Positions 2,040 to 63,426 of a DNA stretch of 64,000 nt are shown here, one piece after another (positions within the stretch are counted from its first letter, which is position 1; the number at the start of each line of letters is the position of its first letter). Origin of the DNA: Eledone cirrhosa. Lineage: Eukaryota. Below the pieces are notes generated by a model. That model was given only the letters and a program-made list of their open reading frames with translations, was not told the origin of the DNA and ran no database searches. The translations under genes and the position numbers were made by a program. The DNA lies in NCBI GenBank assembly GCA_964016885.1, contig OZ024752.1, positions 35,526,001-35,590,000 of the forward strand. Direction: 5' to 3'.

Positions 2040-2507
2040 TTAAGCAACCCTACTCTCACTAACCGCAGAAGCTATTGCAACTGCCGTTACCCCAATGCAT
2101 GCCCATTAAATGAACACTGCCTGACACCCAACATAGTCTATAGGCGCACGGTTAAGACTGCTTCGAATACCAACTCTTATATCGGGTCTACCTCTAACCC
2201 TTTTAAGGTACGCTATAACGCGCACTCTTATTCCTTCCGAGACCCTAGCAACAGATGTTCGAAATCGCTAGCTAGGCTCATTAAAAACCTTAAATTAAAC
2301 AACGTTCAACACTCACTAAAATGGGATATCGTGGCTAGGGCCCAACCGTTCAATGGACGAAGAAAATCTTGTGATCTCTGTATTACGGAAGCATATTACA
2401 TAACTCTATCACGACCTCTACCGATTAACGATAGAACGGAGTTAACTATTAGCTGTCAACATCGAAGGGCTAATTCCTTTGCCAATAGAATTTTTGACCC
2501 AACTTAG
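2040..2507 (+). pseudogene. 5'-truncated Penelope-like element GIY-YIG endonuclease domain (absent from the ORF track, no start codon)
   Basis: Hand translation is stop-free: CNCRYPNACPLNEHCLTPNIVYRRTV...SYIGSTSNPFKVRYNAH...LKWDIVARA...CDLCITEAYYI...INDRTELTISCQH...FDPT*. It shows the VY-YIG motif and the Cys/His pattern of PLE endonucleases. Confidence 0.85.
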
Positions 2508-3539: not shown

Positions 3540-3822
3540 AGAAGTTTATTTAATTTGTTGGGATTCCAACAAGCTTAAAAGTTTATAACTGATATAAAGC
3601 ACTCAACAGATTTACTGGAGTAAATATTCAATATATTAATAAATGGAACTATCCAGTGAACTTTCAACCGTCAAGGTTGTTTTTCCACGGTTATGTCAAT
3701 ATTTATAAAACAAATCTTGTATTTTATCTGATGAAAGCGCACCAAGAATGCCTTGGTTGCCCTTGAAATATATATAATAAAATAATTATGGTTTTATAAA
3801 TATAGTTTCCATTTATTAATAT

Positions 3823-3826
<4 letters not shown>
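3540..3826. mobile_element. Non-coding PLE-like fold-back insertion in (TA)n (same family as 60630 and 62947)
   Basis: caatatattaataaatggaactat pairs with atagtttccatttattaatatattg; shares gcactcaaca...ggagtaaata with ~60690; (TA)n on both sides. Confidence 0.75.
3722..3782 (+). ncRNA. Type I hammerhead ribozyme
   Basis: Stem I ttttat/ataaaa, CTGATGA at 3728, stem II aagcgcaccaag/cttggttgccctt, GAAA at 3765, palindromic stem III tatata, ATA cleavage triplet. Confidence 0.85.
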
Positions 3827-3871
<45 letters not shown>

Positions 3872-4063
3872 GTAATAAACAACATAAGGCAATTATTCCA
3901 TTTACCAGTGGTTTCTTAAAAGCAAAAAATGTTGCTTTCAATCATCAGAATGAAAAAAATCATGGTCTGTTTATTGAATGGTTTTTTAAAATCCAAATTC
4001 AATAAACAGACCGTGATTTCTTAATTGTGGTCACCTCCCAATATACATTATAAATCCACCTAT

Positions 4064-5003: not shown

Positions 5004-6570
5004 TCATCATCATCATCATCATCATCACCGTTTTACGTCCGTTCTTCCACGCTAGCATGGGTTAGACGGGTTGTCCTGTTGTGGGCAGTGTCTGGTCGGC
5101 TGACCATGCCTTGCTCATACAGGAACTGATCTGGCTTGATTTCTACAGCTGGATGCCCTTCCTAACACCAACCTCATTTACAGTGAGTGCTGGGTGCTTT
5201 TTCGTGGCGCCTACACGTCTACTTTACAGTGTGGGCTGGGTGCTTTTTTGCCGTGGCACCTCAACGACCACCTTGCGGTGGGGGGTGTGGGGGCATATTG
5301 TCTATATGCTTCAGCATGTACCCATGGGAGGTCGGGTACTCTGTATTACTGCGTGACGCCAGAAGTCACGGTCGTGTGTCATTGTCTTTGAGAGGTGCAA
5401 TTGGGTAAGGTCGGCTTTTATCACCTCATCCCAGGTCATCTTGGGTCTCCCCACTCCGCGGTTTTCATCAACTTCTAGTGCTCTGCACCTTTTTATGCAG
5501 CTGTCATCCTTCATACGCATCACATGTCCATACCAGCGCTACCGCCTCTCCTGCACACAGCATTTGATTCCTCTTATGCTCAGTCTCTCTCTCAATTCAT
5601 TTATGCTTTGTCATTCACGTATATTACTGTTACACATCCATCGGAGCATGCAGGCTTCGTTTCTCTCTAATCTACGTAAGTCTTTCACCTTCAGCGCCCA
5701 GGTCTCACTACCATGCAACATCGCTGTTCGGATACACGCATCATACAGTCTGCCTTTCATTCTGAGGGAGAAGCCTTTTGCAGTTAGCAGTGGTAGTAGT
5801 TCCCTAAACTTCTTCCATCCCGTTCTTACCCTAGTTATTGTACTTTCTGAACACCCACCTCCGCTGCTAATTCGGTCACCTAGGTAGCAGAAGCTGTCTA
5901 CTGTTTCTACAGGGCCCTCCCAGAGATTGGTGGTACTTGTTTCCTGTGACTGTTTGCTGCTTGCTGTCTCAGCACAGCTGCTGCAAGTGAATCCTACATT
6001 CTTAATTAAGCTTCCTGAGATCCCGCTACATCTCTTGTGTACCCATTGTTTGCATTTGGGGCAGAGAATGGAGTTCTTACCTACACCTTTCCTACATACT
6101 GAGCAAGGCCATTTCCCTGAGGGGATCTGGGTTCTGTTTTCTCGTCTACTTACAAGGACCTTAGTCTTTGCCATCTTGACTTTGAGACCCTTTCTTTCTA
6201 GTCCCTGCTTCCAAGTTTGGAATTTATTCTCTAGTTCTACCATAGATTCAGCTATGAGTGCGAGGTCATCAGCATACAGGAGTTCCCATGGGCATCCGGT
6301 CTTAAACTCCTCCGTTATTGCCTGCAGGACTATGATGAACAGGAGAGGGCTAAGAACAGAGCCCTGGTGGACCCCAACCTGTACGCTAAATTCCTCGCTA
6401 TACTCATTGCTAATCCTAACTTTGCTGACTGCTCCCCTATACATGGCTTGTACCGCTTTCACAAGCCATTCATCTACTCCTAGTTTTCTAAGAGCCCACC
6501 AGATTACAGCACGTGGAACTCTGTCAAAGGCTTTCTCAAGGTCGACAAATGCCAAGTAGAGTGGCTTACT
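5004..6570 (-). mobile_element. 5'-truncated RTE-clade LINE (RT, Cys-rich insert, C-terminal domain, 3' UTR, (TGA)n tail)
   Basis: ORF 5611-6555 has FVDLEKAFDRV, GVHQGSVLSPLLF, LLYADD and MLHGSETW; it continues past premature stops into RGVGRPKMTW; the tail ends in gatgatgat. Confidence 0.95.
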
Positions 6571-6865
6571 GTATATTTTAATTATTTAAAAATTATTTTT
6601 AAGTGAACATGATTTTTTTTAAATATTTTGAAGTGAACGTAACTCAACGGGTCGCGGGTGATACAGTCTTTCTTAAATCTCACTATACAAATATCATACA
6701 TATACCTTACATATACTTTCTACTCCAGAGGAACGACATTTTGGGTCCTCTGTTTTTTCTACAACACAGTGGATAGTCATTAAAGACAATAGACTGATGG
6801 TAAGACTGGAAAGAGATAATGATAATAATGATGATGATGATTTTTTTCTTGTCTAAATCACATAC

Positions 6866-8447: not shown

Positions 8448-8760
8448 TTGTCTTATAAGTTGATTTATAAACTTTTTTATGTTACTCTCATATATCATGT
8501 ATATATTTAAATATATTCATATATTTAAGTATGTTCATATTCCATAAAAGTTTATTTATATATATTTTACGTTCCTCTTATTATCCTTCGTAGCATCTGT
8601 GTGTAGTTACCTCCTAAAGCTTGGTTTATAGATTTTGTCACTGACCGTGATTCCACTGAAGCTTTTAATAATCTAACTTTTGTTTGTGAACATGACAGAA
8701 TCTTTAAGATGTTTGTTGTAAATTACAAGCTGTATTACTCAAACAGATGGGTCATTATCT

Positions 8761-9377
8761 AGAACAACTGTAACTTGAGCTCCAGATTCAACCTGAAGAT
8801 GAACATCTGGAAGAACTGTAACTTGAGCTCCAGATTCAACCTGAAGATGAACATCTGGAAGAACTGTAACTTGAGCTCCAGATTCAAACTGAAGATGAAC
8901 ATCTGGAAGAACTGTAACTTGAGCTCCAGATTCAACCTGAAGATGAACATCTGGAAGAACTGTAACTTGAGCTCCAGATTCAAACTGAAGATGAACATCT
9001 GGAAGAACTGTAACTTGAGCTCCAGATTCAAACTGAAGATGAGCATCTGGAAGAACTGTAACTTGAGCACCAGATCCAAACTGAAGATGAACATCTGGAA
9101 GAACTGTAACATGAGCTCCAAATCCAAACTGAAGATGAACCTCTGAAAGAACTGTAACTTGAGCTCCAGATCCAAACCGAAGATGAACATTTGGAAGAAC
9201 TGTAACTTGAGCTACAGATCCAAACTGAGGATGAACTTCTGGAATAACTGTAACTTGAGCTCCAGATCCAAACTGAGGATGAACCTCTCGAAGAACTGTA
9301 ACTTGAGCTCCAGATCCAAACAGACTGAACAACATATGAAAGAACTATAACTTGAGCTTCAAATCTAAACTGAAGAT
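8761..9377 (+). repeat. 48-bp minisatellite (~13 units) derived from RTE coding sequence
   Basis: Unit gaactgtaacttgagctccagattcaaactgaagatgaacatctggaa; the plus frame reads (NIWKNCNLSSRFKLKM)n and runs into the RTE fragment below. Confidence 0.9.
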
Positions 9378-14011: not shown

Positions 14012-14326
14012 TTTAACTAGTCAAATAAAAATACTTTGTTTGGCTGTTATACCATTGTTATGTCCCTTTTAGCCCAAGACTGCTGTATTTATTTCCCCTT
14101 ACATGGATGGCTGATAATTAAGTAATGGTGTTAATATAATTAATTAAATCCCTTAAATATAGTACCCCACCATACTGTTGTTGTTCAACGAATAAAGAAT
14201 AAAGGCATCCACCGAAACCTTGAGATAAAAAGCAATGAAGATGCGCCAATGTGATAGATTGCACCTACATATTGTCTTTTATTTTTTTTAAACGTTTATA
14301 TGTACATGATATTACAATCATTATAT

Positions 14327-14806
14327 TGGCAAGAGTTACGGTCCTTGCCATTCTGAGTTCAAATCCCGCCGAGGTTAAATTTGCCTTTCATCCTTACGGG
14401 GTCGATAAAATAAAGTACCAGTAATGCACTGGGTGATTGTTGGCCTTGTGCCAAAAGAAGAAACAATTATATTGGCAGTATCGGTAGAGGGTCGGACGTC
14501 ATGCTTTGACGCATAGAGTTACGGCCCTTTCCATTCTGAGTTCAAATCCCGCCGAGGTCAACTTTGCCTTTCATCCTTACGGGGTCGATAAAATAAAGTA
14601 CCAGTAATGCACTGGGTAATTGCTGGCCTTGTGCCAAAAGTAGAAACAGTTATCTACCCTCTGTTACAATTCTAACTACAACTACTATATTTCTGTTTAA
14701 AGGCCTTGAATTGGCAGAGTCGTTAGAACGATAGAATGCCTTGCAGTATTCATTTTGCCTTCCATCCAATCGAGATTGATAAAGTACCAGTCAAGTACCA
14801 GGGTTC

Positions 14807-14858
<52 letters not shown>

Positions 14859-15176
14859 AAGAAATCTACTGTATTCAGACCTGGAGAGGAGATGGGTTCC
14901 GCCAGGTTTAAAGATACTCTAGAAATAATGTAGGTCATTATGGTGCTCCTACAATTCCCTCAGGAATTAGGGGTCCATGAGACCAGATGAGTTTGTGTTA
15001 TATCTCTCTCTCTATGGGCGGTGGATTGGCAGTATCGGGAGAGGGTCGGACACCATGCTTTCCAGCATAGTTACGTCCCTTTACGATCTGAGTTCAAATC
15101 CCGCCGAGGTTGACTTTGCCTTTCATCCTTACCGGGTCGATAAAATCAAGTACCAGTAATGTACTGGGTAATTGCT
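14327..15176 (+). mobile_element. Cluster of Nin/Deu-like SINE copies (14327-14470, 14471-14652, 15016-15176) plus a related older SINE at ~14705-15000
   Basis: Repeated gagttcaaatcccgccgaggt...gtcgataaaataaagtacc consensus. Confidence 0.8.
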
Positions 15177-15289
15177 CAGGGGACCCTCAGTTTGACATGC
15201 CTACTCTAAGGGAGCCAGGTCCACTTAGGTGATGACTCCTAGGCGACCTCCTGCTGTTTTTTCTCCTCCTCCAGCACGTGATATATAAT

Positions 15290-16161: not shown

Positions 16162-16186
<25 letters not shown>

Positions 16187-16194
<8 letters not shown>

Positions 16195-16401
16195 AGATCA
16201 AAAGATGGTTAAAGGAGTTCCATGTATTTTATTATGCGCATTTCAAAAACAAACATCATCATGCAATAATATTTGTGTTTTCATCAGATAAATGTTTTAT
16301 CTGATGAAAACACAAATATTATTGCATGATGATGTTTGTTTTTGAAATGCGCATAATAAAATACATGGAACTCCTTTAACCATCTTTTGATTTTATATTA
16401 T
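16187..16401. repeat. Near-perfect palindrome in (TA)n with a hammerhead in each arm
   Basis: Arms ~16187-16292 and ~16297-16401 are reverse complements; apex near 16294. Confidence 0.95.
16295..16361 (+). ncRNA. Type I hammerhead ribozyme (mirror copy 16227-16292 on the minus strand)
   Basis: ttttat-CTGATGA-aaacacaaatattatt/gatgatgtttgttttt-GAAA-tgcgca-TA-ataaaa; palindromic stem III TGCGCA. Confidence 0.9.
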
Positions 16402-16487
16402 GTATACTCCAGTCCTACAAACTGTAGAGTGCTTCTTATCCGATATCTGCATTGCTTTATTGTACTACAATAAAACTCACCTCCTAC

Positions 16488-16536
<49 letters not shown>

Positions 16537-16577: not shown

Positions 16578-17032
16578 GGGCAGTGGATTGGCAGTATCGA
16601 TAGAGCGTTAGATAACCATGCTTTGCAGCATAGAGTTACAACCCTTTATGATCTGAGTTCAAATCCCACCGAGGTTAACTTTGCCTTTCATCCTTACGGG
16701 GGTCGATAAAATAAAGTACCAGTCACACACTCGGGTCGATTTAATTGACGTTCCCTTCCCCCAAAATTGCTGGCCTTGTGCCTATATAAGAAACCATTAT
16801 ATATCATGACTTATATGTAACTATATAAGGACTTATATACATAATTGTTTCTACTTTAAGCACACGGCCAGCAATTACCCAGTGCATTACTGGTACTTTT
16901 ATTTTATCGACCCCCGTAAGGATGAAAGGCAAAGTTAACCTCGGCGGGATTTGAACTCAGATCGTAAAGGGACGTAACTATCCTGGAAAGCATGGCGTCC
17001 CACCCTCTACCGATACTGCCAATCCACCGCCC
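16578..17032. mobile_element. Tail-to-tail pair of Nin/Deu-like SINEs (16578-16800 on +, 16842-17032 on -)
   Basis: Same consensus as 3018, in opposite orientations. Confidence 0.85.
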
Positions 17033-17055
17033 TTCTATACCTTATATACATAATG

Positions 17056-22581: not shown

Positions 22582-22993
22582 CTATATATATATATAAAAA
22601 CAAAATTTTCCTCTATTCCCATATGTTTCTGTTACCTTCAAAAATAATCACTTGATGGATTTGTATATCTAACATAAAGCAACCTTTATCATAAAATACT
22701 TTTATAATACTTTATATATTATCTAACATTTTACTTCCAGTTATATTCCATCATATATGCTGGATAATGTTTTGGTTTTCTTAATTCTTTAAGGGTTAGT
22801 CAGAGGAGAAAAGAGCAGAACATATGACCTTTACAGGGGTTCTAAGACTGGGAGGATTCTGAGTCGGTCAGGAGTGGGTGCTATGTGAGAGAAGTACTGT
22901 TTCGTAACAAAAAAGAACAAGATAGAATCTACATATGAATTAGCTGTACAAAATGAAGCAATTAGCTACCATTATTAGAGAGATCAAGATCAA

Positions 22994-23418
22994 GGCGGTG
23001 GATTGGGAGTATCGGTAGAGGGTCGGACGCCATGCTTTCCAGCATAGTTACGTCCCTTTATGATCTGAGTTCAAATCCCGCCGAGGTTGACTTTGCCTTT
23101 CATCCTTACGGGGTCGATAAAATAAAGTACCAGTAATGCACTGGGTGATTGCAGGCCTTGTGCCTAAAGTAGAAACAATTATTAGAGAGATCGAAAGGGC
23201 GGTGGATTGGCAGTGTTGGTAGAGGGTCGGACGCCATGCTTTGCAGCAAAGAGTTACGTCCCTTTATGGTCTGAGTTCAAATCCCGCCGAGGTTAACTTT
23301 GCCTTTCATCCTTACGGGGTCGATAAAATGAAGTACCAGTCACGCACTGGGGTCGATTTAATCGACTTTCCCTTCCCCCAAAATTGCTGGCCTTGTGCCT
23401 ATATAAGAAACCATTATT
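22994..23418 (+). mobile_element. Two tandem Nin/Deu-like SINEs
   Basis: Full-length consensus at 22994-23183 and 23197-23418. Confidence 0.85.
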
Positions 23419-27160: not shown

Positions 27161-27166
27161 CTTCGT

Positions 27167-27886
27167 TGCTACATATAGACTAAATACTAAAGAGTTAAAC
27201 AATTACTAATATATTGCTACATATAGACTAAATACTAAAGAGTTAAACAATTACTAATATATTACTACATATAGACTAAATACTAAAGAGTTAAACAATT
27301 ACTAATATATTGCTACATATAGACTAAATACTAAAGAGTTAAACAATTACTAATATATTGCTACATATAGACTAAATACTAAAGAGTTAAACAATTACTA
27401 ATATATTGCTACATATAGACTAAATACTAAAGAGTTAAACAATTACTAATATATTGCTACATATAGACTAAATACTAAAGAGTTAAACAATTACTAATAT
27501 ATTGCTACATATAGACTAAATACTAAAGAGTTAAACAATTACTAATATATTGCTACATATAGACTAAATACTAAAGAGTTAAACAATTACTAATATATTG
27601 CTACATATAGACTAAATACTAAAGAGTTAAACAATTACTAATATATTGCTACATATAGACTAAATACTAAAGAGTTAAACAATTACTAATATATTGCTAC
27701 ATATAGACTAAATACTAAAGAGTTAAACAATTACTAATATATTACTACATATAGACTAAATACTAAAGAGTTAAACAATTACTAATATATTGCTACATAT
27801 AGACTAAATACTAAAGAGTTAAACAATTACTAATATATTGCTACATATAGACTAAATACTAAAGAGTTAAACAATTACTAATATAT
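27167..27886. repeat. 48-bp tandem repeat, 15 near-identical units
   Basis: Unit tgctacatatagactaaatactaaagagttaaacaattactaatatat; abuts the truncated 5' end of the LINE fragment. Confidence 0.97.
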
Positions 27887-29234: not shown

Positions 29235-32200
29235 ACAGTCATTAGGGCAAATAGGCACAGTCATTAGAAGATAGGACATATTGACAGTCATTAGAACAGG
29301 ATATATTGACAATCATTAGAACATAGGACATATTGACAGAGTCATTAGAACAGGATATATTGACAATCATTAGAACATAGGACATATTGACAGAGTCATT
29401 AGAACATGGGACATATTGACAATCATTAGAAGACAGGACATATTGACAGAGTCATTAGAAGATAGGACAAATTGACAGTCATTAGAACATAAGACATATT
29501 GACAGTCATTAGAAAAGAGGACATATTGCCAGTCATTAGAATATCGGACATATTGACAGTCATTAGAACATAGGACAAATTGACAGTCATTAGAATATCG
29601 GACATATTGACAGTCATTAGAACATAGGACAAATTGACAGTCATTAGAACATAGGACAAATTGACAGTCATTAGAACATAGGACAAATTGACAGTCATTA
29701 GAAGATAGGACATATTGACAGTCATTAGAAGATAGGACATATTGACAGTGTCAGTAGAACATAGGACATATTGACAGTCATTAGAATATAGGACATATTG
29801 ACAGTCATTAGAAGATAGGACATATTGACAGTCATTAGAACATAGGACATATTGACAGTCATTAGAAGATAGGACATATTGACAGTCATTAGAATATAGG
29901 ACATATTGACAGTCATTAGAACATAGGACATATTGACAGTGTCATTAGAATATAGGACAAATTGACAGTCATTAGAACATAGGACATATTGACAGTGTCA
30001 TTAGAATATAGGACATATTGACAGTCATTAGAACATAGCACATATTGACAGTGTCATTAGAATATAGGACATATTGACAGTCATTAGAACATAGGACATA
30101 TTGACAGTGTCATTAGAATATAGGACATATTGACAGTGTCATAAGAATATAGGACATATTGACAGTCATTAGAATATGGGACATATTGACAGTCATTAGA
30201 ATATAGGACATATTGACAGTCATTAGAACTTAGGACATATTGACAGTGTCATTAGAATATAGGACATATTGACAGTGTCATTAGAATATAGGACATATTG
30301 ACAGTGTCATTAGAATATAGGACATATTGACAGTCATTAGAAGATAGGACATATTGACAGTCATTAGAATATAGGACATATTGACAGTCATTAGAACAAA
30401 GGACATATTGACAGTGTCATTAGGACATATTGACAGTCATTAGAACATAAGACATATTGACAGTGTCATTAGAATATAGGACATATTGTCAGTCATTAGA
30501 AGATAGGACATATTGACAGTCATTAGAAGATAGGACATATTGACAGTTATTAGAACATAGGACATATTGACAGTGTCATTAGAAGATAGGACATATTGAC
30601 AGTCATTAGAACATAGGACATATTGACAGTGTCATTAGAACATAGGACATATTGACAGTCATTAGAAGATAGGACATATTGACAGTCATTAGAAGATAGG
30701 ACATATTGACAGTCATTAGAAGATAGGACATATTGACAGTCATTAGAATATAGGACATATTGACAGTCATTAGAAGATAGGACATATTGACAGTCATTAG
30801 AACAAAGGACATATTGACAGTGTCATTAGAATATAGGACATATTGACAGTCATTAGAACATAGGACATATTGACAGTCATTAGAACATAGGACAAATTGA
30901 CAGTGTCATTAGAACATAGGACATATTGACAGTCATTAGAACATAGGACATATTGACAGTGTCATTAGAATATAGGACATATTGACAGTCATTAGAACAT
31001 AGGACATATTGACAGTCATTAGAACATAGGACAAATTGACAGTGTCATTAGAATATAGGACATATTGACAGTCATTAGAACATAGGACATATTGACAGTC
31101 ATTAGAACATAGGACATATTGACAGTGTCATTAGAATATAGGACATATTGACAGTCATTAGAATTAAGGACATATTGACAGTGTCATTAGAATATAGGAC
31201 ATATTGACAGTGTCATTAGAATATGGGACATATTGACAGTGTCATTAGAACATAGGACATATTGACAGTGTCATTAAAATATAGGACATATTGACAGTCA
31301 TTAGAACATAGGACATATTGACAGAGTCATTAGAATATAGGACATATTGACAGTCATTAGAAGATAGGACATATTGACAGTCATTAGAAGATAGGACATA
31401 TTGACAGTCATTAGAACAAAGGACATATTGACAGTGTCATTAGAATATAGGACAAATTGAGAGTCATTAGAAGATAGGACATATTGACAGTCATTAGAAG
31501 ATAGGACATATTGACAGTCATTAGAACAAAGGACATATTGACAGTGTCATTAGAATATAGGACAAATTGACAGTCATTAGAAGATAGGACATATTGACAG
31601 TCATTAGAAGATAGGACATATTGACAGTCATTAGAACAAAGGACATATTGACAGTGTCATTAGAATATAGGACAAATTGACAGTCATTAGAAGATAGGAC
31701 ATATTGACAGTCATTAGAACACAGGACATATTGTCAGTGTCATTAGAATATAGGACATATTGACAGTCATTAGAATATAGGACATATTGACAGTCATTAG
31801 AATATAGGACATATTGACAGTCATTAGAATATAGGACATATTGACAGTCATTAGAATATAGGACAAATTGACAGTCATTAGAAGATCGGACATATTGACA
31901 GTCATTAGAACACAGGACATATTGTCAGTGTCATTAGAATATAGGACAAATTGACAGTCATTAGAAGATAGGACATATTGACAGAGTCATTAGAATATAG
32001 GACATATTGACAGTCATTAGAAGATAGGACAAATTGACAGTCATTAGAAGATCGGACATATTGACAGTCATTAGAACATAGGACAAATTGACAGTCATTA
32101 GAATATAGGACATATTGACAGTCATTAGAAGATAGGACATATTGACAGTCATTAGAAGATAGGACATATTGACAGTCATTAGAACACAGGACATATTGAC

Positions 32201-35200
32201 AGTCATTAGAATATAGCACATATTGACAGTGTCATTAGAATATAGGACATATTGACAGTGTCATTAGAATATAGGACATATTGACAGTGTCATTAGAATA
32301 TAGGACATATTGACAGAGTCATTAGAACATAGGACATATTGACATTCATTAGAAGATAGGACATATTGACAGTCATTAGAAGATAGGACATATTGACAGT
32401 CATTAGAACATAGGACATATTGACAGTCATTAGAACATAGGACATATTGACAGTCATTAGAATATAGGACATATTGACAGTCATTAGAAGATAGGACATA
32501 TTGACAGTCATTAGAAGATAGGACAAATTGACAGTCATTAGAATATAGGACATATTGACAGTCATTAGAATATAGGACATATTGACAGTCATTAGAATAT
32601 AGGACATATTGACAGTCATTAGAAGATAGGACATATTGACAGTCATTAGAATATAGGACATATTGTCAGCCATTAGAACATAGGACATATTGACAGTATC
32701 ATTAGAATATAGGACATATTGACAGTCATTAGAACATAGGACATATTGCCAGTGTCATTAGAATATAGGACATATTGACAGTCATTAGAACTTAGGACAT
32801 ATTGACAGTGTCATTAGAATATGGGACATATTGACAGTCATTAGAATATAGGACATATTGACAGTCATTAGAACTTAGGACATATTGACAGTGTCATTAG
32901 AACATAGGACATATTGACAGTGTCATTAGAATATAGGACATATTGACAGTGTCATTAGAATATAGGACATATTGACAGTCATTAGAACTTAGGACATATT
33001 GACAGTGTCATTAGAATATAGGACATATTGTCAGTCATTAGAAGATAGGACATATTGACAGTCATTAGAAGATAGGACATATTGACAGTCATTAGAACAT
33101 AGGACATATTGACAGTGTCATTAGAATATAGGACATATTGACAGTCATTAGAAGATAGGACATATTGAGAGTCATTAGAAGATAGGACATATTGACAGTC
33201 ATTAGAACAAAGGACATATTGACAGTGTCATTAGGACATATTGACAGTCATTAGAACATAAGACATATTGACAGTGTCATTAGAATATAGGACATATTGA
33301 CAGTCATTAGAACATAGGACATATTGACAGTCATTAGAAGATAGGACATATTGACAGTCATTAGAACATAGGACATATTGACAGTCATTAGAACATAGGA
33401 CATATTGACAGTGTCATTAGAATATAGGACATATTGACAGTCATTAGAAGATAGGACATATTGACAGTCATTAGAAGATAGGACATATTGACAGTCATTA
33501 GAACATAGGACATATTGACAGTGTCATTAGAATATAGGACATATTGACAGTCATTAGAAGATAGGACATATTGACAGTCATTAGAAGATAGGACATATTG
33601 ACAGTCATTAGAACAAAGGACATATTGACAGTGTCATTAGGACATATTGACAGTCATTAGAACATAGGACATATTGACAGAGTCATTAAAACATAGGACA
33701 AATTGAGAGTCATTAGAAGATAGGACATATTGACAGTCATTAGAAGATAGGACATATTGACAGTGTCATTAGAATATAGGACATATTGACAGTGTCATTA
33801 GAATATAGGACATATTGACAGTCATTAGAAGATAGGACATATTGACAGTCATTAGAACAAAGGACATATTGACAGTGTCATTAGGACATATTGACAGTCA
33901 TTAGAACATAGGACATATTGACAGAGTCATTAGAAAATAGGACAAATTGAGAGTCATTAGAAGATAGGACATATTGACAGTCATTAGAAGATAGGACATA
34001 TTGACAGTCATTAGAATATAGGACATATTGACAGTGTCATTAGAATATAGGACATATTGACAGTGTCATTAGAATATAGGACATATTGACAGTGTCATTA
34101 GAATATAGGACAAATTGACAGTCATTAGAAGATAGGACAAATTGACAGTCATTAGAACATAGGACAAATTGACAGTCATTAGAATATAGGACATATTGAC
34201 AGTCATTAGAAGATAGGACATATTGACAGTCATTAGAAGATAGGACATATTGACAGAGTCATTAGAACATAGGACATATTGACAGTCATTAGAATATAGG
34301 ACATATTGACAGTATCATTAGAATATAGGACATATTGACAGAGTCATTAGAACATAGGACAAATTGACAGTGTCATTAGAACATAGGACATATTGACAGT
34401 CATTAGAAGATAGGACAAATTGACAGTGTCATTAGAACATAGGACATATTGACAGTCATTAGAACATAGGACATATTGACAGTCATTAGAATATAGGACA
34501 TATTGACAGTCATTAGAAGATAGGACATATTGACAGTCATTAGAAGATAGGACATATTGACAGTCATTAGAACATAGGACATATTGACAGTCATTAGAAT
34601 ATAGGACATATTGACAGTCATTAGAAGATAGGACAAATTGACAGTGTCATTAGAACATAGGACATATTGACAGTCATTAGAACATAGGACATATTGACAG
34701 TCATTAGAATATAGGACATATTGACAGTCATTAGAAGATAGGACATATTGACAGTCATTAGAAGATAGGATATATTGACAGTCATTAGAACATAGGACAT
34801 ATTGACAGTCATTAGAAGATAGGACATATTGACAGTCATTAGAACATAGGACATATTGACAGTCATTAGAAGATAAGACATATTGACAGTCATTAGAAGA
34901 TAGGACATATTGACAGTCATTAGAATATAGGACATATTGACAGTCATTAGAAGATAGGACATATTGACAGTCATTAGAACACAGGACATATTGACAGTCA
35001 TTAGAACATAGGACATATTGACAGTCATTAGAACATAGGACATATTGACAGTGTCATTAGAATATAGGACAAATTGACAGTGTCACTAGAATATAGGACA
35101 TATTGACAGTGTCATTAGAACATAGGACATATTGACAGTGTCATTAGAATATAGGACATATTGACAGTGTCATTAGAATATAGGACATATTGACAGTCAT

Positions 35201-35217
35201 TAGAAGATAGGACAAAT
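29235..35217. repeat. ~6-kb satellite of 27-bp units with 29-bp variants (roughly 215 units)
   Basis: Unit gacag(tg)tcattagaa[cat/tat/gat/caa]aggacatatt. Confidence 0.98.
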
Positions 35218-35496: not shown

Positions 35497-35554
<58 letters not shown>

Positions 35555-35651
35555 GTTAAAATACTGGAGCGTGTTGGAGTTAAACACCCTCTTCGTATTA
35601 TAGAAATGACAGTAAAAGGTATAGCTCAATGTAGTTAAACAGAGCCGAAGA

Positions 35652-35896
35652 ATTTTGAAAGTAAAACAAAGAAGCCTTCAATACATCAAAAGTCTTTATT
35701 AGCCAACAATGTTTCGTCCTATTAAGGACTCATCAGGGCAATTAAAACAACAAGAAGTATTATCGGCCAATACAAGGCTTGTATTGGCCGATAATACTTC
35801 TTGTTGTTTTAATTGCCCTGATGAGTCCTTAATAGGACGAAACATTGTTGGCTAATAAAGACTTTTGATGTATTGAAGGCTTCTTTGTTTTACTTT

Positions 35897-35902
<6 letters not shown>
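35652..35902. repeat. Perfect ~250-bp palindrome in (TA)n with a hammerhead in each arm
   Basis: Centre at 35777 (acaag-g-cttgt); the arms read as exact reverse complements. Confidence 0.95.
35815..35852 (+). ncRNA. Minimal type I hammerhead ribozyme (mirror copy 35702-35739 on the minus strand)
   Basis: gcc-CTGATGA-gtcct taat aggac-GAAAC-att-GTT-ggc. Confidence 0.9.
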
Positions 35903-35973: not shown

Positions 35974-36156
35974 GGAAAAGAGTCAGAACCACGACGGTTG
36001 AGCTCCGGCCGTTTCGACAGCTAGATCTAGCTGTCGAAACGGCCGGAGCTCAGCCGTTGGAGTCCTGACTCTTTTCCCATTACCCACTCTACTACCCTAA
36101 GTATCGAGTACTCTGGTGCATTAGGGTCCACCTGGTTTCATACCACAATTCCTTCG

Positions 36157-36212
<56 letters not shown>

Positions 36213-36399
36213 CGAAGGAAATGTGGTAAGGAAGCAGGTGGACCATAACGCACCAAAGTACTCAATACTTAGGGTAGTAGAGTGGGTAATAGGAACGAGT
36301 AGGACCCCGACGGCTGAGCTCAAGCCGTTACGACGGCTAATTCAGTCCAGAATTAGCCGTCGAAACGGCTTGAGCTCAGCCGTCGGGGTCCTACTCCTT

Positions 36400-36403
<4 letters not shown>
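35974..36403. repeat. Two fold-back copies of one repeat family, tail-to-tail across (TA)n
   Basis: Hairpin apices at 36025/36026 (agatct) and ~36346; unpaired tails ~36078-36160 and ~36211-36289 are mutually inverted. Confidence 0.9.
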
Positions 36404-36439
<36 letters not shown>

Positions 36440-39744: not shown

Positions 39745-40461
39745 GTTTTGCGAGGTTTTTTATATGAAATCGTGTGTCGAAACAGATATTGTTATATTTG
39801 GGGAGGGTCATATTTGCGTAATATTGCCAGAATTAATAACAGAACACACTCACTGTTTGGTTGGTTTTCGCTTCTCGCTGTCTTTTATATATATGTATCT
39901 GCGATCTAACTTACTCGGTCCTCAATGTTGCCATTGACTGACCGGCGGTCAAAAATAATACAGATACAATATAGACAAACACATATATATATAGTTTACA
40001 TAAATCTTTCGTTGCACATCTGCAACATCGTCAGTGGTGTTATATTCATTGTTCCTCCTGTTGTGTTGTATGTCTACGCCATTTTTTTTTTGTTCAGTCT
40101 GTCTATATATTTATTTATTTATTTGCTTGTTTGTTTATCTTATTTTATTTTGTCTTCTTTGCGCATGCGTTTGCGTGTGTGTATAGTGTTATGTGTGATG
40201 TGTGACTAGTGTGTATAGTGTTGTGTCTGCTGGGTGACTAGTGTGTGTTTATGTGCTTGTGTATGTATTTATTTATCTTATTTTATTTAATTTAATTTAC
40301 TTATTTATTTATACTTCTCTTAGGTCAGTGTTGTTTGTTTGGGTGTTGTTGTTGTTCCACTCATTCTTTCTGTTTAGCTTTGGTCTTCTAATTTCTATTT
40401 CACTGGCCTCTCTGATTTGCCTATCTGCTGGGTCATTCCTATGTTTAGATATTATTCTAAT

Positions 40462-42760
40462 AGATGACGAGACGGAGGCACAGTTCACCATAGCTAGAAA
40501 TAAGATTAGACAAGTAGTAGACAGGTACACTATGAGACAGAGCAGACCAGAGGCCCAACAACTTGGGATAAAACCTGTAGAAGGCTTGGTTAGCCTCAAG
40601 CAGCGCACAAGGGATGGTGAGGTAGTGTGTCTACCCACAGATAAGTCTGGTAGGATGTCAATAGATAGCATGCCGAACTACATCGAGGCAATGCAACCCC
40701 ACATCACCAACACGAGCGAAGTTGCACAACTAACACACGATGGGAGAGAAAAAATCCTCAACGCTCACATGATGATGTGGACTGACATCCTAAAGCCAAG
40801 CAGACGCACTGCCAACAACTTCCAGGCGTCTAACAATGGCATACCACCCTTGTATGGGCTCCGCAAAGACCACAAGACAGTCGACGACCCGACAATAGGA
40901 CCACCAACAAGACCTGTATGCGGAGCTAATATAGCTAGCAACTACAGGATCTCCTACTTCCTCTCAATGGTTATACGCCCCATAATCAAGATGTCCCCAG
41001 ATGTATGTGAAAGTACAGAGGACCTCCTCAGCAGAATCAGTGAGTGCAACAAAAACAGGAGCCTATCCAACTGCATAATAGGCAGCATGGATGTGGTGTC
41101 ACTGTACCCATCCATTAACATTGATTTTGCTGTGAAAAGATGTGTGGAGATGATCATTGAGAGTGAGGTGGAGTTCTGCGACGTCGACACAGACGAACTG
41201 GGCCTCCTACTTAGACTTACCTACGACACTGACTACCTAGACAGCCATGACCTTAGATGTTTCTGCCCTAGTAGACCTATAAGAGGTAGACCCCCCACCA
41301 TAACCTCAATGGCTAAAAAGACTCCCATAGGAAGGTGGATTGGGTGGACCAAAGCTATACGGACCCCCCAAAACACTGATCAGGTAAGAAAAATGGTCGC
41401 ACATGCAATAGGGGCTAGTATCAAAACTACCCTAAAGGGCCACATATTTAAGTTCAATGAGAAAATCTACACCCAAAATGAGGGAGCAGCCATCGGCGTC
41501 AGCATAGCTGGCGATGTTGCCAACCTTTTCATGGTATGGTGGGAAAGGAGACTTAAAGATCTCCTTAATAATAGCTCCATAGACCTCATCATGTACTCTC
41601 GTTATGTAGACGATATCAATATAGTTATAAGAACACCCCCACTAGAGAGCACTAACAAGTTTGATTTAGAACGTAGCACGATGGAAAGCATCCAGCAGAT
41701 AGCTAATTCCATACACCAGAGTATAACTGTAACTATAGACTTCCCTTCCAAACACCCTAACAATAGACTACCTGTATTAGACACAGAACTCTGGATTAAC
41801 ACTATAGACGAGAGAGCCCAAATTCTCCACTCACACTATGCTAAACCCATGGCCTCCAAATACCTGATACTCAAAAACTCAGCAATGTCCAGTAGTGCTA
41901 AGTTTAATATTCTGATCGCAGATTTGGTACGAGTGATGAAGAATGTGTCCAGCATGTGCGACCCAACAGAAATGGAAGGACACATCCAACACTTCATCAA
42001 CCGCATGCAGTTCTCTGGCTACAACCAAAGAGACAGAGTCAGAGTATACGAAGGAGCCATGGAAAAGTATAAGACCCTCATAGAACTGGACATGAAAGGA
42101 ATTTGCCCACTATACAGGAGCAAATCATGGAATAGCTTAGATAGGGCTAGACATAAGATAGGGAAGGCCACATCATGGTACGACAACCAGAGATATCAGA
42201 GTGTCATGTTTGTGGACGCCACCCCTGGAGGGAAATTAGCTAACCAGTGTAGAAAGGCCCTGAGAAAGACCCACTTAAAAATAAAGGTGGTAGAAAAGCC
42301 AGGAACCACCATAAAATCCCTGATCAGCAAAACCTACCCTTTTAAGAAAACCCACTGTACCAATAGGAAATGTATCATATGTAAGGTGAACCCCCGGATA
42401 AACTGTAAAACTAGAAACGTAGTCTATAGCATAAGATGTACAGAGGGTACTTGCAGAAACACGACAACAACATACATAGGTGAGACAGCTCGTAGCATAG
42501 GTGAAAGGATAGACCAACACTGGGGGGAACTAAAAGGACGAAAAAACGGGTCAGTACTATACGAACATGCTAGACAACATCATGACGGTAACATAGACAA
42601 CATAGAAATTAGAATAATATCTAAACATAGGAATGACCCAGCAGATAGGCAAATCAGAGAGGCCAGTGAAATAGAAATTAGAAGACCAAAGCTAAACAGA
42701 AAGAATGAGTGGAACAACAACAACACCCAAACAAACAACACTGACCTAAGAGAAGTATAA
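40462..42760 (+). CDS. PLE polyprotein: reverse transcriptase plus GIY-YIG endonuclease (N-terminus missing; the first ~74 aa of the track ORF are antisense pLTR)
   Basis: TDKSG, LYGLRKDHK, RPVCG, SMDVVSLYPSI, QNEGAAIG, RYVDD, LPVLD, then C..CIIC...CKTRNVVYSIRC...YIGETARSIGERIDQH...H...REASEI...PKLN; no internal stops. Confidence 0.95.
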
Positions 42761-43034
42761 ATAAATAAGTAAATTAAATTAAATAAAATAAGATAAATAA
42801 ATACATACACAAGCACATAAACACACACTAGTCACCCAGCAGACACAACACTATACACACTAGTCACACATCACACATAACACTATACACACACGCAAAC
42901 GCATGCGCAAAGAAGACAAAATAAAATAAGATAAACAAACAAGCAAATAAATAAATAAATATATAGACAGACTGAACAAAAAAAAAATGGCGTAGACATA
43001 CAACACAACAGGAGGAACAATGAATATAACACCA

Positions 43035-43080
43035 CTGACGATGTTGCAGATGTGCAACGAAAGATTTATGTAAACTATAT
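43035..43080 (+). ncRNA. Hammerhead core in the PLE 3' UTR (mirror copy ~39990-40034 on the minus strand)
   Basis: CTGACGA-t-gttgca gatg tgcaac-GAAA; stems I and III are not clearly resolved. Confidence 0.65.
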
Positions 43081-43453
43081 ATATATGTGTTTGTCTATAT
43101 TGTATCTGTATTATTTTTGACCGCCGGTCAGTCAATGGCAACATTGAGGACCGAGTAAGTTAGATCGCAGATACATATATATAAAAGACAGCGAGAAGCG
43201 AAAACCAACCAAACAGTGAGTGTGTTCTGTTATTAATTCTGGCAATATTACGCAAATATGACCCTCCCCAAATATAACCATATATATATATATATATATT
43301 AATATTTGATGAACATTTACATGTATTAGTTGCAATTGACTAATAAAATCGCTAGAATGAAATATCTTAATTCAACAACATAGAGTCTAAACTCTAAGCT
43401 ATTTATATATATATATATATATGTATGTGTGTATATATATATATATATATATG

Positions 43454-47334: not shown

Positions 47335-48440
47335 TCGCGGTCGTGCCCTTGGCACTAGAGACTTCTGATGTCCTTGCTCCTAGGGCTACCTCCCTACTCA
47401 CCACCATAGGCGCTGAGCTGGATAGCCGTAGTAGTGGAGACTTCTGATGTCCTTGCCCCTAGGGCTACCTCCCTACTCACCACCATAGGCGCTGAGCTGG
47501 ATAGCCGTAGTAGTGGAGACTTCTGGTGTCCTTGGCCCTAGGGCTACCTCCCTACTCACCACCATAGGCGCTGAGCTGGCTAGCCGTAGTAGTGGAGACT
47601 TCTGGTGTCCTTGGCCCTAGGGCTACCTCCCTACTCACCACCATAGGCGCTGAGCTGGCTAGCCGTAGTAGTGGAGACTTCTGGTGTCCTTGGCCCTAGG
47701 GCTACCTCCCTACTCACCACCATAGGCGCTGAGCTGGCTAGCCGTAGTAGTGGAGACTCCTGATGTCCTTGCCCCTAGGGCTACCTCCCTACTCACCACT
47801 ATAGGCACTGAGCTGGCTAGCCGTAGTAGTGGAGACTTCTGGTGTCCTTGGCCCTAGGGCTACCTCCCTACTCACCACCATAGGCGCTGAGCTGGCTAGC
47901 CGTAGTAGTGGAGACTCCTGATGTCCTTGCCCCTAGGGCTACCTCCCTACTCACCACTATAGGCGCTGAGCTGGCTAGCCGTAGTAGTGGAGACTTCTGG
48001 TGTCCTTGGCCCTAGGGCTACCTCCCTACTCACCACCATAGGCGCTGAGCTGGCTAGCCGTAGTAGTGGAGACTCCTGATGTCCTTGCCCCTAGGGCTAC
48101 CTCCCTACTCACCACCATAGGCGCTGAGCTGGCTAGCCGTAGTAGTGGAGACTTCTGGTGTCCTTGGCCCTAGGGCTACCTCCCTACTCACCACGATAGG
48201 CGCTGAGCCGCAGGTGCGAACCTCGCGAGTTGGAATGGCTCTTCCAGCGCATCTTCCTTACCACCCACCAGGGAAACGCCTTCTCCATTCTGTCCGCCGG
48301 GGCTGTGGGGAGGCCAGCAAGTGGGACCCCATTTGCTCGCCATTACGGAGAGATGGGGAGGCCGAGAGAGATAGAGGCGATGACAGTGGGAGTTCGGCTC
48401 TACCACGTTCGGACCATATCCTTGTGGTTGTTCATCATGC
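47335..48440 (+). mobile_element. CRE-like non-LTR 3' fragment whose endonuclease segment is amplified into a 79-bp tandem array (~11 units, 47355-48208)
   Basis: Unit gtggagacttctggtgtccttggccctaggg...gccgtagta (ETSGVLGPRATSLLTTIGAELAS), followed by EWLFQRI...QGNAFSIL. Confidence 0.85.
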
Positions 48441-50982: not shown

Positions 50983-53076
50983 AGTTGACCTATACTAAAG
51001 GGCTTCACTGATAGGGTTATGTGTGTTATAATTTCCCAGTTGACCTATACTAAAGGGCTTCACTGATAGGGTTGTGTGTGTTATAATTTCCCAGTTGACC
51101 TATACTAAAGGGCTTCACTGATAGGATTGTGTGTGTTATAATTTCCCAGTTGACCTATACTAAAGGGCTTCACTGATAGGATTGTGTGTGTTATAATTTC
51201 CCAGTTGACCTATACTAAAGGGCTTCACTGATAGGATTGTGTGTGTTATAATTTCCCAGTTGACCTATACTAAAGGGCTTCACTGATAGGATTGAGTGTG
51301 TTATAATTTCCCAGTTGACCTATACTAAAGGGCTTCACTGATAGGATTGTGTGTGTTATAATTTCCCAGTTGACCTATACTAAAGGGCTTCACTGATAGG
51401 ATTGTGTGTGTTATAATTTCCCAGTTGACCTATACTAAAGGGCTTCACTGATAGGATTGTGTGTGTTATAATTTCCCAGTTGACCTATACTAAAGGGCTT
51501 CACTGATAGGATTGAGTGTGTTATAATTTCCCAGTTGACCTATACTAAAGGGCTTCACTGATAGGATTGTGTGTGTTATAATTTCCCAGTTGACCTATAC
51601 TAAAGGGCTTCACTGATAGGATTGTGTGTGTTATAATTTCCCAGTTGACCTATACTAAAGGGCTTCACTGATAGGATTACGTGTGTTATAATTTCCCAGT
51701 TGACCTATACTAAAGGGCTTCACTGATAGGATTGAGTGTGTTATAATTTCCCAGTTGACCTATACTAAAGGGTTTCACTGATAGGGTTTCGTGTGTTATA
51801 ATTTCCCAGTTGACCTATACTAAAGGGCTTCACTGATAGGATTGTGTGTGTTATAATTTCCCAGTTGACCTATACTAAAGGGTTTCACTGATAGGGTTTC
51901 GTGTGTTATAATTTCCCAGTTGACCTATACTAAAGGGTTTCACTGATAGGGTTTCGTGTGTTATAATTTCCCAGTTGACCTATACTAAAGGGCTTCCCTG
52001 ATAGGATTGAGTGTGTTATAATTTCCCAGTTGACCTATACTAAAGGGCTTCACTGATAGGATTGTGTGTGTTATAATTTCCCAGTTGACCTATACTAAAG
52101 GGCTTCACTGATAGGATTGTGTGTGTTATAATTTCCCAGTTGACCTATACTAAAGGGCTTCACTGATAGGATTACGTGTGTTATAATTTCCCAGTTGACC
52201 TATACTAAAGGGCTTCACTGATAGGATTGTGTGTGTTATAATTTCCCAGTTGACCTATACTAAAGGGTTTCACTGATAGGGTTTCGTGTGTTATAATTTC
52301 CCAGTTGACCTATACTAAAGGGCTTCACTGATAGGATTGTGTGTGTTATAATTTCCCAGTTGACCTATACTAAAGGGCTTCACTGATAGGATTGTGTGTG
52401 TTATAATTTCCCAGTTGACCTATACTAAAGGGTTTCACTGATAGGGTTTCGTGTGTTATAATTTCCCAGTTGACCTATACTAAAGGGCTTCACTGATAGG
52501 ATTGTGTGTGTTATAATTTCCAAGTTGACCTATACTAAAGGGTTTCACTGATAGGGTTTCGTGTGTTATAATTTCCAAGTTGACCTATACTAAAGGGCTT
52601 CACTGATAGGATTGTGTGTGTTATAATTTCCCAGTTGACCTATACTAAAGGGTTTCACTGATAGGGTTTCGTGTGTTATAATTTCCCAGTTGACCTATAC
52701 TAAAGGGTTTCACTGATAGGATTGTGTGTGTTATAATTTCCCAGTTGACCTATACTAAAGGGTTTCACTGATAGGGTTTCGTGTGTTATAATTTCCCAGT
52801 TGACCTATACTAAAGGGCTTCACTGATAGGATTGTGTGTGTTATAATTTTCCAGTTGACCTATACTAAAGGGTTTCACTGATAGGGTTTCGTGTGTTATA
52901 ATTTCCCAGTTGACCTATACTAAAGGGCTTCACTGATAGGATTGTGTGTGTTATAATTTCCCAGTTGACCTATACTAAAGGGCTTCACTGATAGGATTGT
53001 GTGTGTTATAATTTCCCAGTTGACCTATAATAAAGGGCTTCACTGATAGGATTACGTGTGTTATAATTTCCCAGTT
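50983..53076. repeat. 55-bp tandem array, 38 units
   Basis: Unit agttgacctatactaaagggcttcactgataggattgtgtgtgttataatttccc. Confidence 0.98.
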
Positions 53077-57271: not shown

Positions 57272-57467
57272 GAAGACTAAAATCCAAAGAGGGCTCGATA
57301 AGGATAAATATATATCAGATATGTAAGAACCCTAGAGCAAATATTTATTAAAATAACAGATTAAAGTTTAAGCAAAGAATCGTTGCTTTCACCCTTAACG
57401 GGATCCCGTTAAGGGTGAAAGCAGCGATTCTTTGCTTAGACTTTAATCTGTTATTTTAATAAATATA
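57272..57467. repeat. Fold-back insertion with apex GGATCC at 57403/57404
   Basis: Arms 57340-57403 and 57404-57467; the unpaired tail matches 44081-44150. Confidence 0.9.
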
Positions 57468-58022: not shown

Positions 58023-58402
58023 AACGAAGGAAATGTGGTAAGGAACCAGGTGGACCATAACGCACCAAAGTACTCAATACTTAGGGTAGTAGAGTGGGTA
58101 ATAGGAACAAGTATGACCCCGACGGCAGAGCTCAAGCCGTTTCGACGGCTAATTCTGGACTCCAGAATTAGCCGTCTGGACTCCAGAATTAGCCGTCTGG
58201 ACTCCAGAATTAGCCGTCGAAACGGCTTGAGCTCTGCCGTCGGGGTCATACTTGTTCCTATATATATATATATAGTATGACCCCGACGGCAGAGCTCAAG
58301 CCGTTTCGACGGCTAATTCTGGAGTCCAGACGGCTAATTCTGGACTCCAGAATTAGCCGTCGAAACGGCTTGAGCTCTGCCGTCGGGGTCATACTTATTC
58401 CT
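58023..58402. repeat. Two adjacent palindromic copies of the 1527/36211 family, with a 21-bp unit reiterated at the apex
   Basis: ctggactccagaattagccgt three times at ~58156-58218; second hairpin at 58275-58402. Confidence 0.9.
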
Positions 58403-59291: not shown

Positions 59292-59665
59292 TATTGTTAT
59301 ACTTTGGGAGGGTCATGTTGCCAATAAGAAACACACGCACCAGTTGCTTTCACTTCAATTTATTATATATTTATAAATTTATAAATTTACAAATCTACAA
59401 ACTTATAAATTTCTGGTTGGTTGGTTGGTTCCACAACCAGATAGTTGTTTATATATAGTCATAGTCCTTTCGTCACACAACCAACCAACCAAGCAGCCAA
59501 CCAGAAATTTATAAGTTTGTAGATTTGTAAATTTATAAATTTATAAATATATAATAAATTGAAGTGAAAGCAACTGGTGCGTGTGTTTCTTATTGGCAAC
59601 ATATCCCTCCCAAAGTATAACAATATCGGTTTCAACACACGATTTCAGATAAAGAATCTTGCTAA
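59292..59665. repeat. Fold-back insertion related to the terminus of the 39745-43278 PLE
   Basis: Arms ~59292-59430 and ~59490-59626; the tail aacacacgatttcagataaa resembles the reverse complement of 39750-39810. Confidence 0.8.
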
Positions 59666-60629: not shown

Positions 60630-61027
60630 GTAGAAGTTCTATTTAAATTGTTGGGATACAACAAGCAAATATTTTTATAACTATTATAAAGCACTCAACA
60701 AATTATTGGAGTAAATATACGATATATTAACAAATGGAAACTGTATTTATAAAACCATATTTATTTCATTATTCACATTTCAAGGACACCAAGTTAAATT
60801 ATGGTGTGCTTTCATCAGATAAAATATAATATAGATTAGTTTTATAAATAAATATTGACATACCCTTAAAGAATGCGACCATTTCTGTTGGAAGCTCCCG
60901 GGAGCTTCCAAGAGAAATGGTTGCATTTTTTAAGGGTATGTCAATATTTATTTATAAAACTGCTCTATATTATATTTTATCTGATGAAAGTACACCATAA
61001 TTTAACTTGGTGTTCTTGAAATATGTA
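60630..61027. repeat. Fold-back insertion (apex cccggg at 60899/60900) with hammerheads at 60764-60824 (-) and 60975-61030 (+)
   Basis: ttttat-CTGATGA-aag(c/t)acacca...tggtgt(c/t)ctt-GAAAT in both arms; same family as 3540 and 62947. Confidence 0.9.
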
Positions 61028-62894: not shown

Positions 62895-62946
<52 letters not shown>

Positions 62947-62949
<3 letters not shown>

Positions 62950-63402: not shown

Positions 63403-63426
63403 ATATATATATATATATATATTTAT

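What the first reader, a model, noticed from the sequence alone, without database searches (positions are those of the whole stretch)
16187..16401. Palindromic mini-insertion folding back immediately upstream of a hammerhead
Seen: a ~215-bp near-perfect palindrome in (TA)n whose apex (~16294) lies at the first bases of stem I, so each strand carries one HHR plus its exact antisense. An unpaired tail continues to ~16490. Inference: reverse transcription of a PLE-type RNA stopped at the ribozyme edge and the cDNA snapped back. In a transcript the long hairpin would compete with ribozyme folding, giving either dsRNA (siRNA or ADAR substrate) or cleavage.
Basis: partly seen in the sequence, partly recalled or inferred. 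Interest (0 to 1): 0.7.

Follow-up and report, generated by a model that had tools for sequence, protein, structure and literature searches.

The report
Penelope retroelement stub with mirrored arms
This hairpin-shaped repeat is one of thousands of short footprints of a Penelope-type jumping gene, likely made when both ends of a cut in TA-repeat DNA each copied the element's RNA, and its fold point at the ribozyme edge is a rare outlier, not the rule.

Summary
The palindrome, its hammerhead and its one-sided tail are real. It is a 303-bp, 5'-truncated, head-to-head insertion of a high-copy Penelope-like element whose full-length copies encode an RT plus C-terminal GIY-YIG protein with Hydra-clade motifs. 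Of 3,626 genome-wide palindromes counted, 73 fold within about 15 nt of the ribozyme core, and 2,326 fall in the bin where both arms end 69 nt upstream. That site often carries an extra G, the expected mark of a capped RNA 5' end. All 99 classifiable copies have one long and one short 3' end, and the short-end arm often reaches further 5' than the tailed arm, which snap-back of one cDNA cannot produce. Best reading: two target-primed cDNAs from two internal start sites, joined end to end; this copy lost about 60 nt per arm. Snap-back is not excluded for this one copy, and arm ends do cluster at the stem I edge within the rare class. No RNA data were available. The architecture is published; the scan's earlier notes reached the two-ended reading on other DNA of this genome.

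The parts
16163..16186 (.). Left remnant of the (TA)n target
16187..16292 (-). Inverted short-end arm: element positions -5 to +100 (0 = first C of the hammerhead core)
16293..16295 (.). Apex: 3 unpaired nt belonging to the long arm; blunt junction, no microhomology, no added bases
16293..16489 (+). Long-end arm: element positions -8 to +188; 2 differences in 197 nt from the ORF-bearing copy L031
16293..16363 (+). Minimal type I hammerhead: stem I 8 bp, core 16301-16307, long AU-rich stem II, GAA 16344-16346, palindromic stem III 16347-16354, predicted cut 16355/16356
16228..16292 (-). Mirror hammerhead with only 5 bp of stem I
16402..16489 (+). One-sided 88-nt tail between the two fixed 3' ends (+100 and +188); in tandem copies it leads straight into the 5' UTR of the ORF
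16490..16519 (.). Right remnant of the (TA)n target

Best explanation
This is a short head-to-head insertion of a Hydra-like Penelope element into (TA)n, likely written by two reverse transcriptions, one primed from each end of the cut target. Shown: every classifiable copy has one arm ending at +188 and one near +100; the two 5' ends vary separately; most arms end at -69; both arms nearly always come from one source copy. Inferred: the element's RNA starts capped at -69 in the pseudo-LTR; the RT starts internally at the first copy of the two start sites, only 170 and 260 nt from the cap, runs off the 5' end, and the two cDNA ends are joined by microhomology end joining. This makes mini-palindromes the main by-product. 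Inferred for this copy: about 60 nt of each arm were lost, by trimming at joining or by later deletion of the palindrome centre, leaving the apex at -8/-5. The ribozyme is a passenger in setting the apex and is predicted not to fold in a read-through transcript.
For: One long plus one short end in 99 of 99 classifiable copies. Short-end arm further 5' than the tailed arm in 14 of 32, 13 of 19 and 8 of 48 and 14 of 23. 374 genome-wide junctions join an inverted arm reaching -69 to a forward arm that starts only at about +78 to +108 and carries the tail. Apex histogram 73, 87, 313, 605, 2,326, 222. Extra sense-strand G at -70 in 24 of 43 non-overlapping arms and, counted by eye, 54 of 100 listed arm ends of 513 junctions, where the genome has C. 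Microhomology at 22 of 32 edge junctions. Arms concordant at 17 diagnostic sites in 48 of 55 loci against 9.7% of random pairs. In vitro, a PLE protein cuts and extends both strands and starts at two internal sites that bound the tail (PMC11167929); PLE transcription starts in the pLTR (PMC2377424).
Against: No RNA evidence for the start site or for expression. Edge-class copies are about ten times more common than independent arm truncation predicts (73 seen, about 6 expected by hand arithmetic), so a coupled process that I did not identify is needed. Arm ends are enriched at -8 in that class (20 of 64, null 6.0). Near-identical arms are also what snap-back or gene conversion would give. How one RNA region is copied twice (two sibling RNAs or strand displacement) is unresolved. 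This copy's junction is blunt, the minority type (3 of 32).
Confidence: 0.7

Rival explanations
1. One reading: one cDNA primed at +188 stopped at the stem I edge, folded back over a 3-nt loop and copied itself up to a second nick at +100.
For: Long arm (-8) contains the short arm (-5); -8 enriched in the edge class; excess of near-symmetric apices; arms near-identical.
Against: No pairing is available to prime at the apex (blunt junction). In the same class the short-end arm is the longer one in 14 of 32 and the tailed arm in 10 of 32, so there is no excess in the direction snap-back needs. When the partner arm reaches -69, the other arm ends at -8 in only 2 of 35 such rows of 50 listed (by eye), so -8 is not a general RT stop. 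An RT moving 3' to 5' has already opened stem I when it reaches its 5' strand (reasoning).
Confidence: 0.15
2. Self-priming on an antisense template, the model proposed for head-to-head PLE junctions by Arkhipova et al. 2013.
For: Published reading of palindromic PLE junctions (PMC3846280, passages); modal junction here is a short palindrome.
Against: Does not explain arms that do not overlap, nor a sense-strand extra G at a fixed site, nor two fixed 3' ends.
Confidence: 0.08
3. A MITE-like or master palindromic element amplified as a unit.
For: Near-perfect palindrome, TA context, thousands of copies.
Against: One-sided tail in 99 of 99; many different junctions and subfamilies; parent encodes RT-EN, not a transposase.
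Confidence: 0.05
4. Assembly or library fold-back artefact.
For: No read or contig bridged this apex by the tool's 31-letter rule.
Against: Ends match the family's two fixed ends, the arms differ at one site, 3,626 comparable palindromes have varied junctions, and short-read contigs X1-X3 show inverted -69 arms joined next to this position as loose ends.
Confidence: 0.02

Closest known systems
Insertions of EN+ Penelope-like elements: inverted 5'-truncated copy plus one-sided tail (PMC8557442; PMC3846280; PMC2377424)
   Same: Head-to-head inverted pLTR, tail on one side only, partial tandems, hammerhead in the pLTR, microsatellite target.
   Different: Tail is 88 nt, not 30-40; ORF-less mini-palindromes dominate; a sharp 5' hot spot with an extra G; published explanations invoke EN resolution or self-priming.
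Hydra clade of C-terminal EN+ PLEs, e.g. Hydra-1_Obim (PMC8557442)
   Same: DKT, CxCX5C linker, no CCHH, CxxC and CxH, (TA)n target, hammerhead; RT motifs resemble the Hydra alignment by eye.
   Different: RWT or RWI instead of RWK; 3.7-kb unit with a 1-kb 3' UTR; hammerhead sequence differs from the one listed for Hydra-1_Obim; no tree was built.
Poseidon_Ac in vitro mechanism (PMC11167929)
   Same: Two internal RT start sites bounding the tail; both strands cut and extended; hammerhead cleavage dispensable.
   Different: That paper does not derive the inverted structure from two cDNAs in the parts read; here the genomic record gives the pairing rule.
LINE-1 twin priming and untemplated 5' G (review PMC4859970, passages)
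   Same: Two primers from one target give an inversion; extra G read as a copy of the cap.
   Different: No poly(A) priming; the two arms usually duplicate the same RNA segment instead of splitting it (L1 detail recalled).
Non-LTR retrozymes (bioRxiv 10.64898/2026.07.22.740005)
   Same: Non-coding, type I hammerhead, PLE-related.
   Different: No head-to-tail array; ends do not follow the cleavage site.

Membership tests
EN+ Penelope-like element | Single ORF with RT and GIY-YIG endonuclease in full-length copies | tested here: met
   821-aa frame in L031 with QFD, YRDD and LIY...YFG motifs, conserved in 10 aligned homologs. Pfam gave no relevant hit for the protein itself; 1 of 11 aligned members hit RVT_1, E 3e-4. 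The window copy has no ORF.
EN+ Penelope-like element | Hammerhead motif in the pseudo-LTR | tested here: met
   cleavage itself not tested
EN+ Penelope-like element | Partial tandem forming a pLTR upstream of the ORF | tested here: met
   L042; also L013, L036, L041, L043
EN+ Penelope-like element | Inverted 5'-truncated copy and one-sided tail | tested here: met
   99 of 99 classifiable copies; tail 88 nt
EN+ Penelope-like element | Target-site duplication | tested here: inconclusive
   Both flanks are (TA)n
Hydra clade | DKG modified to DKT | tested here: met
   residue 144
Hydra clade | CxCX5C linker instead of CX2-5CxxC | tested here: met
   residue 680; no CX2-5CxxC match
Hydra clade | CCHH absent; CxxC and CxH near the C terminus | tested here: met
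   one Cys between the GIY and YIG positions; CxxC 780, CxH 808
Hydra clade | N-terminal RWK motif | tested here: inconclusive
   RWT in L031, RWI in L042 and L043; RWK in 6 of 10 homologs
Hydra clade | Insertion into (TA)n | tested here: met
Hydra clade | Phylogenetic placement within the clade | not tested
   Only a by-eye comparison with the supplement alignment
Non-LTR retrozyme | Two or more head-to-tail units each with a hammerhead | tested here: not met
   One inverted pair only
MITE / DNA transposon | Inverted repeats at both termini and a transposase-coding parent | tested here: not met
   Tail on one side; parent encodes RT-EN

The most novel reading that the evidence does not exclude
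The palindromic stem III of the minimal hammerhead works as an RNA dimerisation signal, like a retroviral kissing loop: it pairs two sibling transcripts on a dimeric RT-endonuclease, which copies one into each end of a single break from two different start sites down to the cap. The thousands of mini-palindromes would then be footprints of a two-RNA particle, and the PLE hammerhead's main job would be pairing, not cleavage. Compatible with: stem III duplex -10.5 kcal/mol and a co-folded dimer, overlapping arms from one source locus, one complex insertion with segments of two subfamilies (L200), no major peak of arm ends at the cleavage site.
Probability: 0.15. Interest if true: 0.75.

Novelty: new member of a known kind. 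Interest (0 to 1): 0.4.

Why it matters
The locus itself is ordinary. The family is useful because how Penelope-like elements make their inverted ends is still open in the papers read. Here thousands of young copies give a rule (one long end, one short end, separate 5' ends, a capped run-off site) that favours two-ended priming over self-priming and can be tested with the existing in vitro PLE assay. At least 3,626 such hairpins are also potential dsRNA if transcribed, which I could not test.

Tried and rejected
DNA search of the own genome returned nothing because common words are skipped. No RNA holder listed, so small RNA, editing, start site and cleavage were not examined. Laying DNA runs mixed all family copies; no piece bridged this apex by the 31-letter rule; two X5 pieces cross it with shorter sides. 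Rfam gave only sub-threshold miRNA matches at the palindrome, rejected as hairpin look-alikes. Pfam and PDB sequence searches did not name the protein. My first guess, Neptune clade, failed the linker test. Hammerhead cleavage as the source of 5' ends: by eye 7 to 11 of 100 listed partner arms start at the cut site, 59 of 100 in the U-run 3' of stem II (219 matches); about 8 of 35 short palindromes fold at the cut site: at most a small effect. Collision of two RTs on one RNA: no sharp peak at +100. Paired start-site hairpins suggested by earlier notes: the same fold 3' of the short end in 4 of 4 copies, no consistent fold 3' of the long end, inconclusive. Automatic end-calling found no pair in 43 of 68 loci (strict motifs), so one search counts only 25. 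Look-ups of earlier notes by sequence and nearby place were empty. Searches that found no paper stating the two-cDNA origin of PLE inverted ends; subscription papers and bioRxiv supplements were not visible.

Full report
Observation. The palindrome is real: arms 16182-16292 and 16296-16406, 98% complementary, 3 nt apart, with a 96-bp perfect run against a null maximum of 13. A descriptor scan finds a minimal type I hammerhead on each strand, with 8 bp of stem I on + and 5 bp on -. The tail is 16402-16489 and both flanks are (TA)n. Positions below count from the first C of the core (16301 = 0).

Identity. A 26-nt ribozyme motif has 15,577 exact matches in the 3.0-Gb genome. Long copies carry an ORF: L031 has an inverted 880-bp arm, an 821-aa frame, a 1-kb 3' UTR, the ribozyme and the tail; L042 is a partial tandem in which the tail runs into the 5' UTR. 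The window's long arm differs from L031 at 2 of 197 nt. The protein has RT motifs, a C-terminal GIY-YIG-like domain, DKT, CxCX5C, CxxC and CxH and lacks CCHH, the features given for the Hydra clade in PMC8557442 (passages; section 15 whole; supplement look-ups). RWK is RWT here. 25 homologs of 32-42% identity were found among 7,990 scored candidates. An inverted truncated copy with a one-sided tail is the published PLE layout.

Test of the apex. I counted inverted-forward pairs of the core motif genome-wide by the gap between them: 0-30 nt, 73; 31-60, 87; 61-90, 313; 91-120, 605; 121-150, 2,326; 151-180, 222. The window copy (gap 13) is in the smallest bin, 73 of 3,626. These counts need exact motifs on both arms, include a few copies of related families and leave out longer gaps. 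The apex is not random, but the hot spot is at -69, not at the ribozyme.

What -69 is. Where the arms do not overlap, the base 5' of -69 is G in 24 of 43 arms (p 1.6e-5 against 0.25; some of these G could come from the partner arm), though the element has C there. Among 513 junctions with 2-12 nt between two intact ends, the 100 listed arm ends show, by eye, 54 G, 21 C, 18 T and 7 A on the sense strand; 10 of the 54 begin short duplications. Untemplated G is read as a copy of the cap in L1 and SVA (PMC4859970, passages), and Penelope is transcribed from its pLTR (PMC2377424, passages). I infer a capped start at -69. This is not shown.

Test of snap-back. I fetched 36 edge-class (window copy included), 20 next-bin and 50 hot-spot loci, and dropped 4, 1 and 2 (other families, a duplicate, complex or unclassifiable ends). 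All 99 left have one end at +188 and one near +100. A cDNA that folds back can only give a short arm contained in the tailed arm. The short-end arm reaches further 5' in 14 of 32, 13 of 19 and 8 of 48 (tailed arm further: 10, 6, 6; the rest tie). In an unselected sample of 68 loci the strict caller found 25 pairs: 23 long-short, 1 long-long, 1 poorly covered; short arm further in 14 of 23, tailed arm in 3. Genome-wide, 374 junctions join an arm reaching -69 to a partner that is little more than the tail. So each arm is copied from RNA. This fits the in vitro behaviour of Poseidon_Ac: both strands cut and extended, two internal starts bounding the tail, cleavage not needed (PMC11167929, parts 1-2 of 4). 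It does not fit the self-priming reading of PMC3846280 (passages).

One source. The two arms of a locus differ by a median of 1 against 8 between loci (48 loci), agree at all 17 diagnostic sites in 48 of 55 loci against 9.7% of random pairs, and share 10 private variants (2 loci gave no match). One complex locus, L200, mixes two subfamilies. Both arms therefore come from one source copy nearly always; whether from one RNA molecule or two is open, and gene conversion is not excluded.

Results against my reading. Within the edge class, arm ends cluster at -8, the 5' edge of stem I: 20 of 64, null mean 6.0, 0 of 5,000 simulations as high. The same null also fails at -26 and -29 in the next bin, far from stem I, so unmodelled microhomology may contribute. 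By hand, independent truncation predicts about 6 edge-class copies (35 of 50 listed rows have one arm near -69), and 73 are seen. A coupled process is needed: symmetric trimming at joining, later loss of the palindrome centre, or occasional snap-back. This copy (-8 and -5, blunt) fits any of them. When the partner is at -69, the other arm ends at -8 in only 2 of 35 rows, which argues against an intrinsic RT stop.

Ribozyme fate. The 303-nt transcript folds at -172.6 kcal/mol with stem I probability 0.0 on both strands; stem I is about 0.65 in the isolated 71 nt, 0.1 in native context and 0.0 in the right arm alone. The antisense arm precedes the ribozyme on both strands. Minimal PLE hammerheads are reported to work weakly and as dimers (PMC4209133, passages). 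Cleavage from this locus is predicted to be negligible; dsRNA would form if it is transcribed, which was not tested.

Novelty. The layout is known and the locus is one of thousands. I found no paper stating the two-cDNA origin (listings, plus the passages named above; bioRxiv 10.64898/2026.07.22.740005 part 1 of 5). Earlier notes of this scan report the same two-ended reading for other DNA of this genome; they are not independent support. Added here: the genome-wide apex histogram, the -69 site with its extra G, and a direct test of snap-back. The host looks like a cephalopod (earlier notes and recall of the SINE family, not tested). Verdict: new family member of a known kind, interest 0.4.

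Noticed in passing
window 39960-43110: A different, apparently full-length PLE: 840-residue open frame 40238-42760 with weak RVT_1 hit, Neptune-type Cys linker and C-terminal GIY-YIG-like part, an inverted copy of its 3' end upstream, and a hammerhead-like core near 43035.
   Followed up: partly
window 3540-3826, 35553-35902, 60650-61030, 62940-63404: Four more head-to-head hammerhead elements of other families; apices about 42 nt (35777), 82 nt (60899) and 84 nt (63131) upstream of the core; at 3540-3826 the tailed arm is only the tail plus about 25 nt while the other arm is long, the same rule.
   Followed up: partly
window 2052-2480: Fragment of a Hydra-like endonuclease, 37% identical to the C terminus of P0001.
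   Followed up: no
window 35974-36404, 58023-58402: GC-richer palindromic elements in (TA)n without a hammerhead match, one with 21-bp internal repeats.
   Followed up: no
window 57341-57466, 59363-59554, 3900-4030: Further short inverted elements next to TA tracts; 3900-3960 has a hammerhead motif on the minus strand.
   Followed up: no
window 14317-15205, 16578-17035, 22971-23351: Abundant SINE-like repeat family flanking the finding, some in tandem.
   Followed up: no
window 29257-35214, 50983-53076, 47358-48208, 27166-27886, 8757-9377: Satellite arrays with 27-, 55-, 79-, 48- and 48-bp units.
   Followed up: no
window 5611-6585: LINE-like RT fragment with a PHD-finger match.
   Followed up: no
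L031:2617, L013, L036, L041, L043: In L031 the forward ORF copy begins 2-3 nt after the long-end position, exactly one unit length, with no pLTR in front; the other four are tandems joined at that point.
   Followed up: partly
listing: Partner arms end mostly in the U-run just 3' of stem II (59 of 100 by eye), where an RT would meet the hairpin or a weak hybrid.
   Followed up: partly
L039, L033: Inverted pairs with two long ends; in L039 the mirror extends into flanking DNA, perhaps a later fold-back duplication.
   Followed up: no
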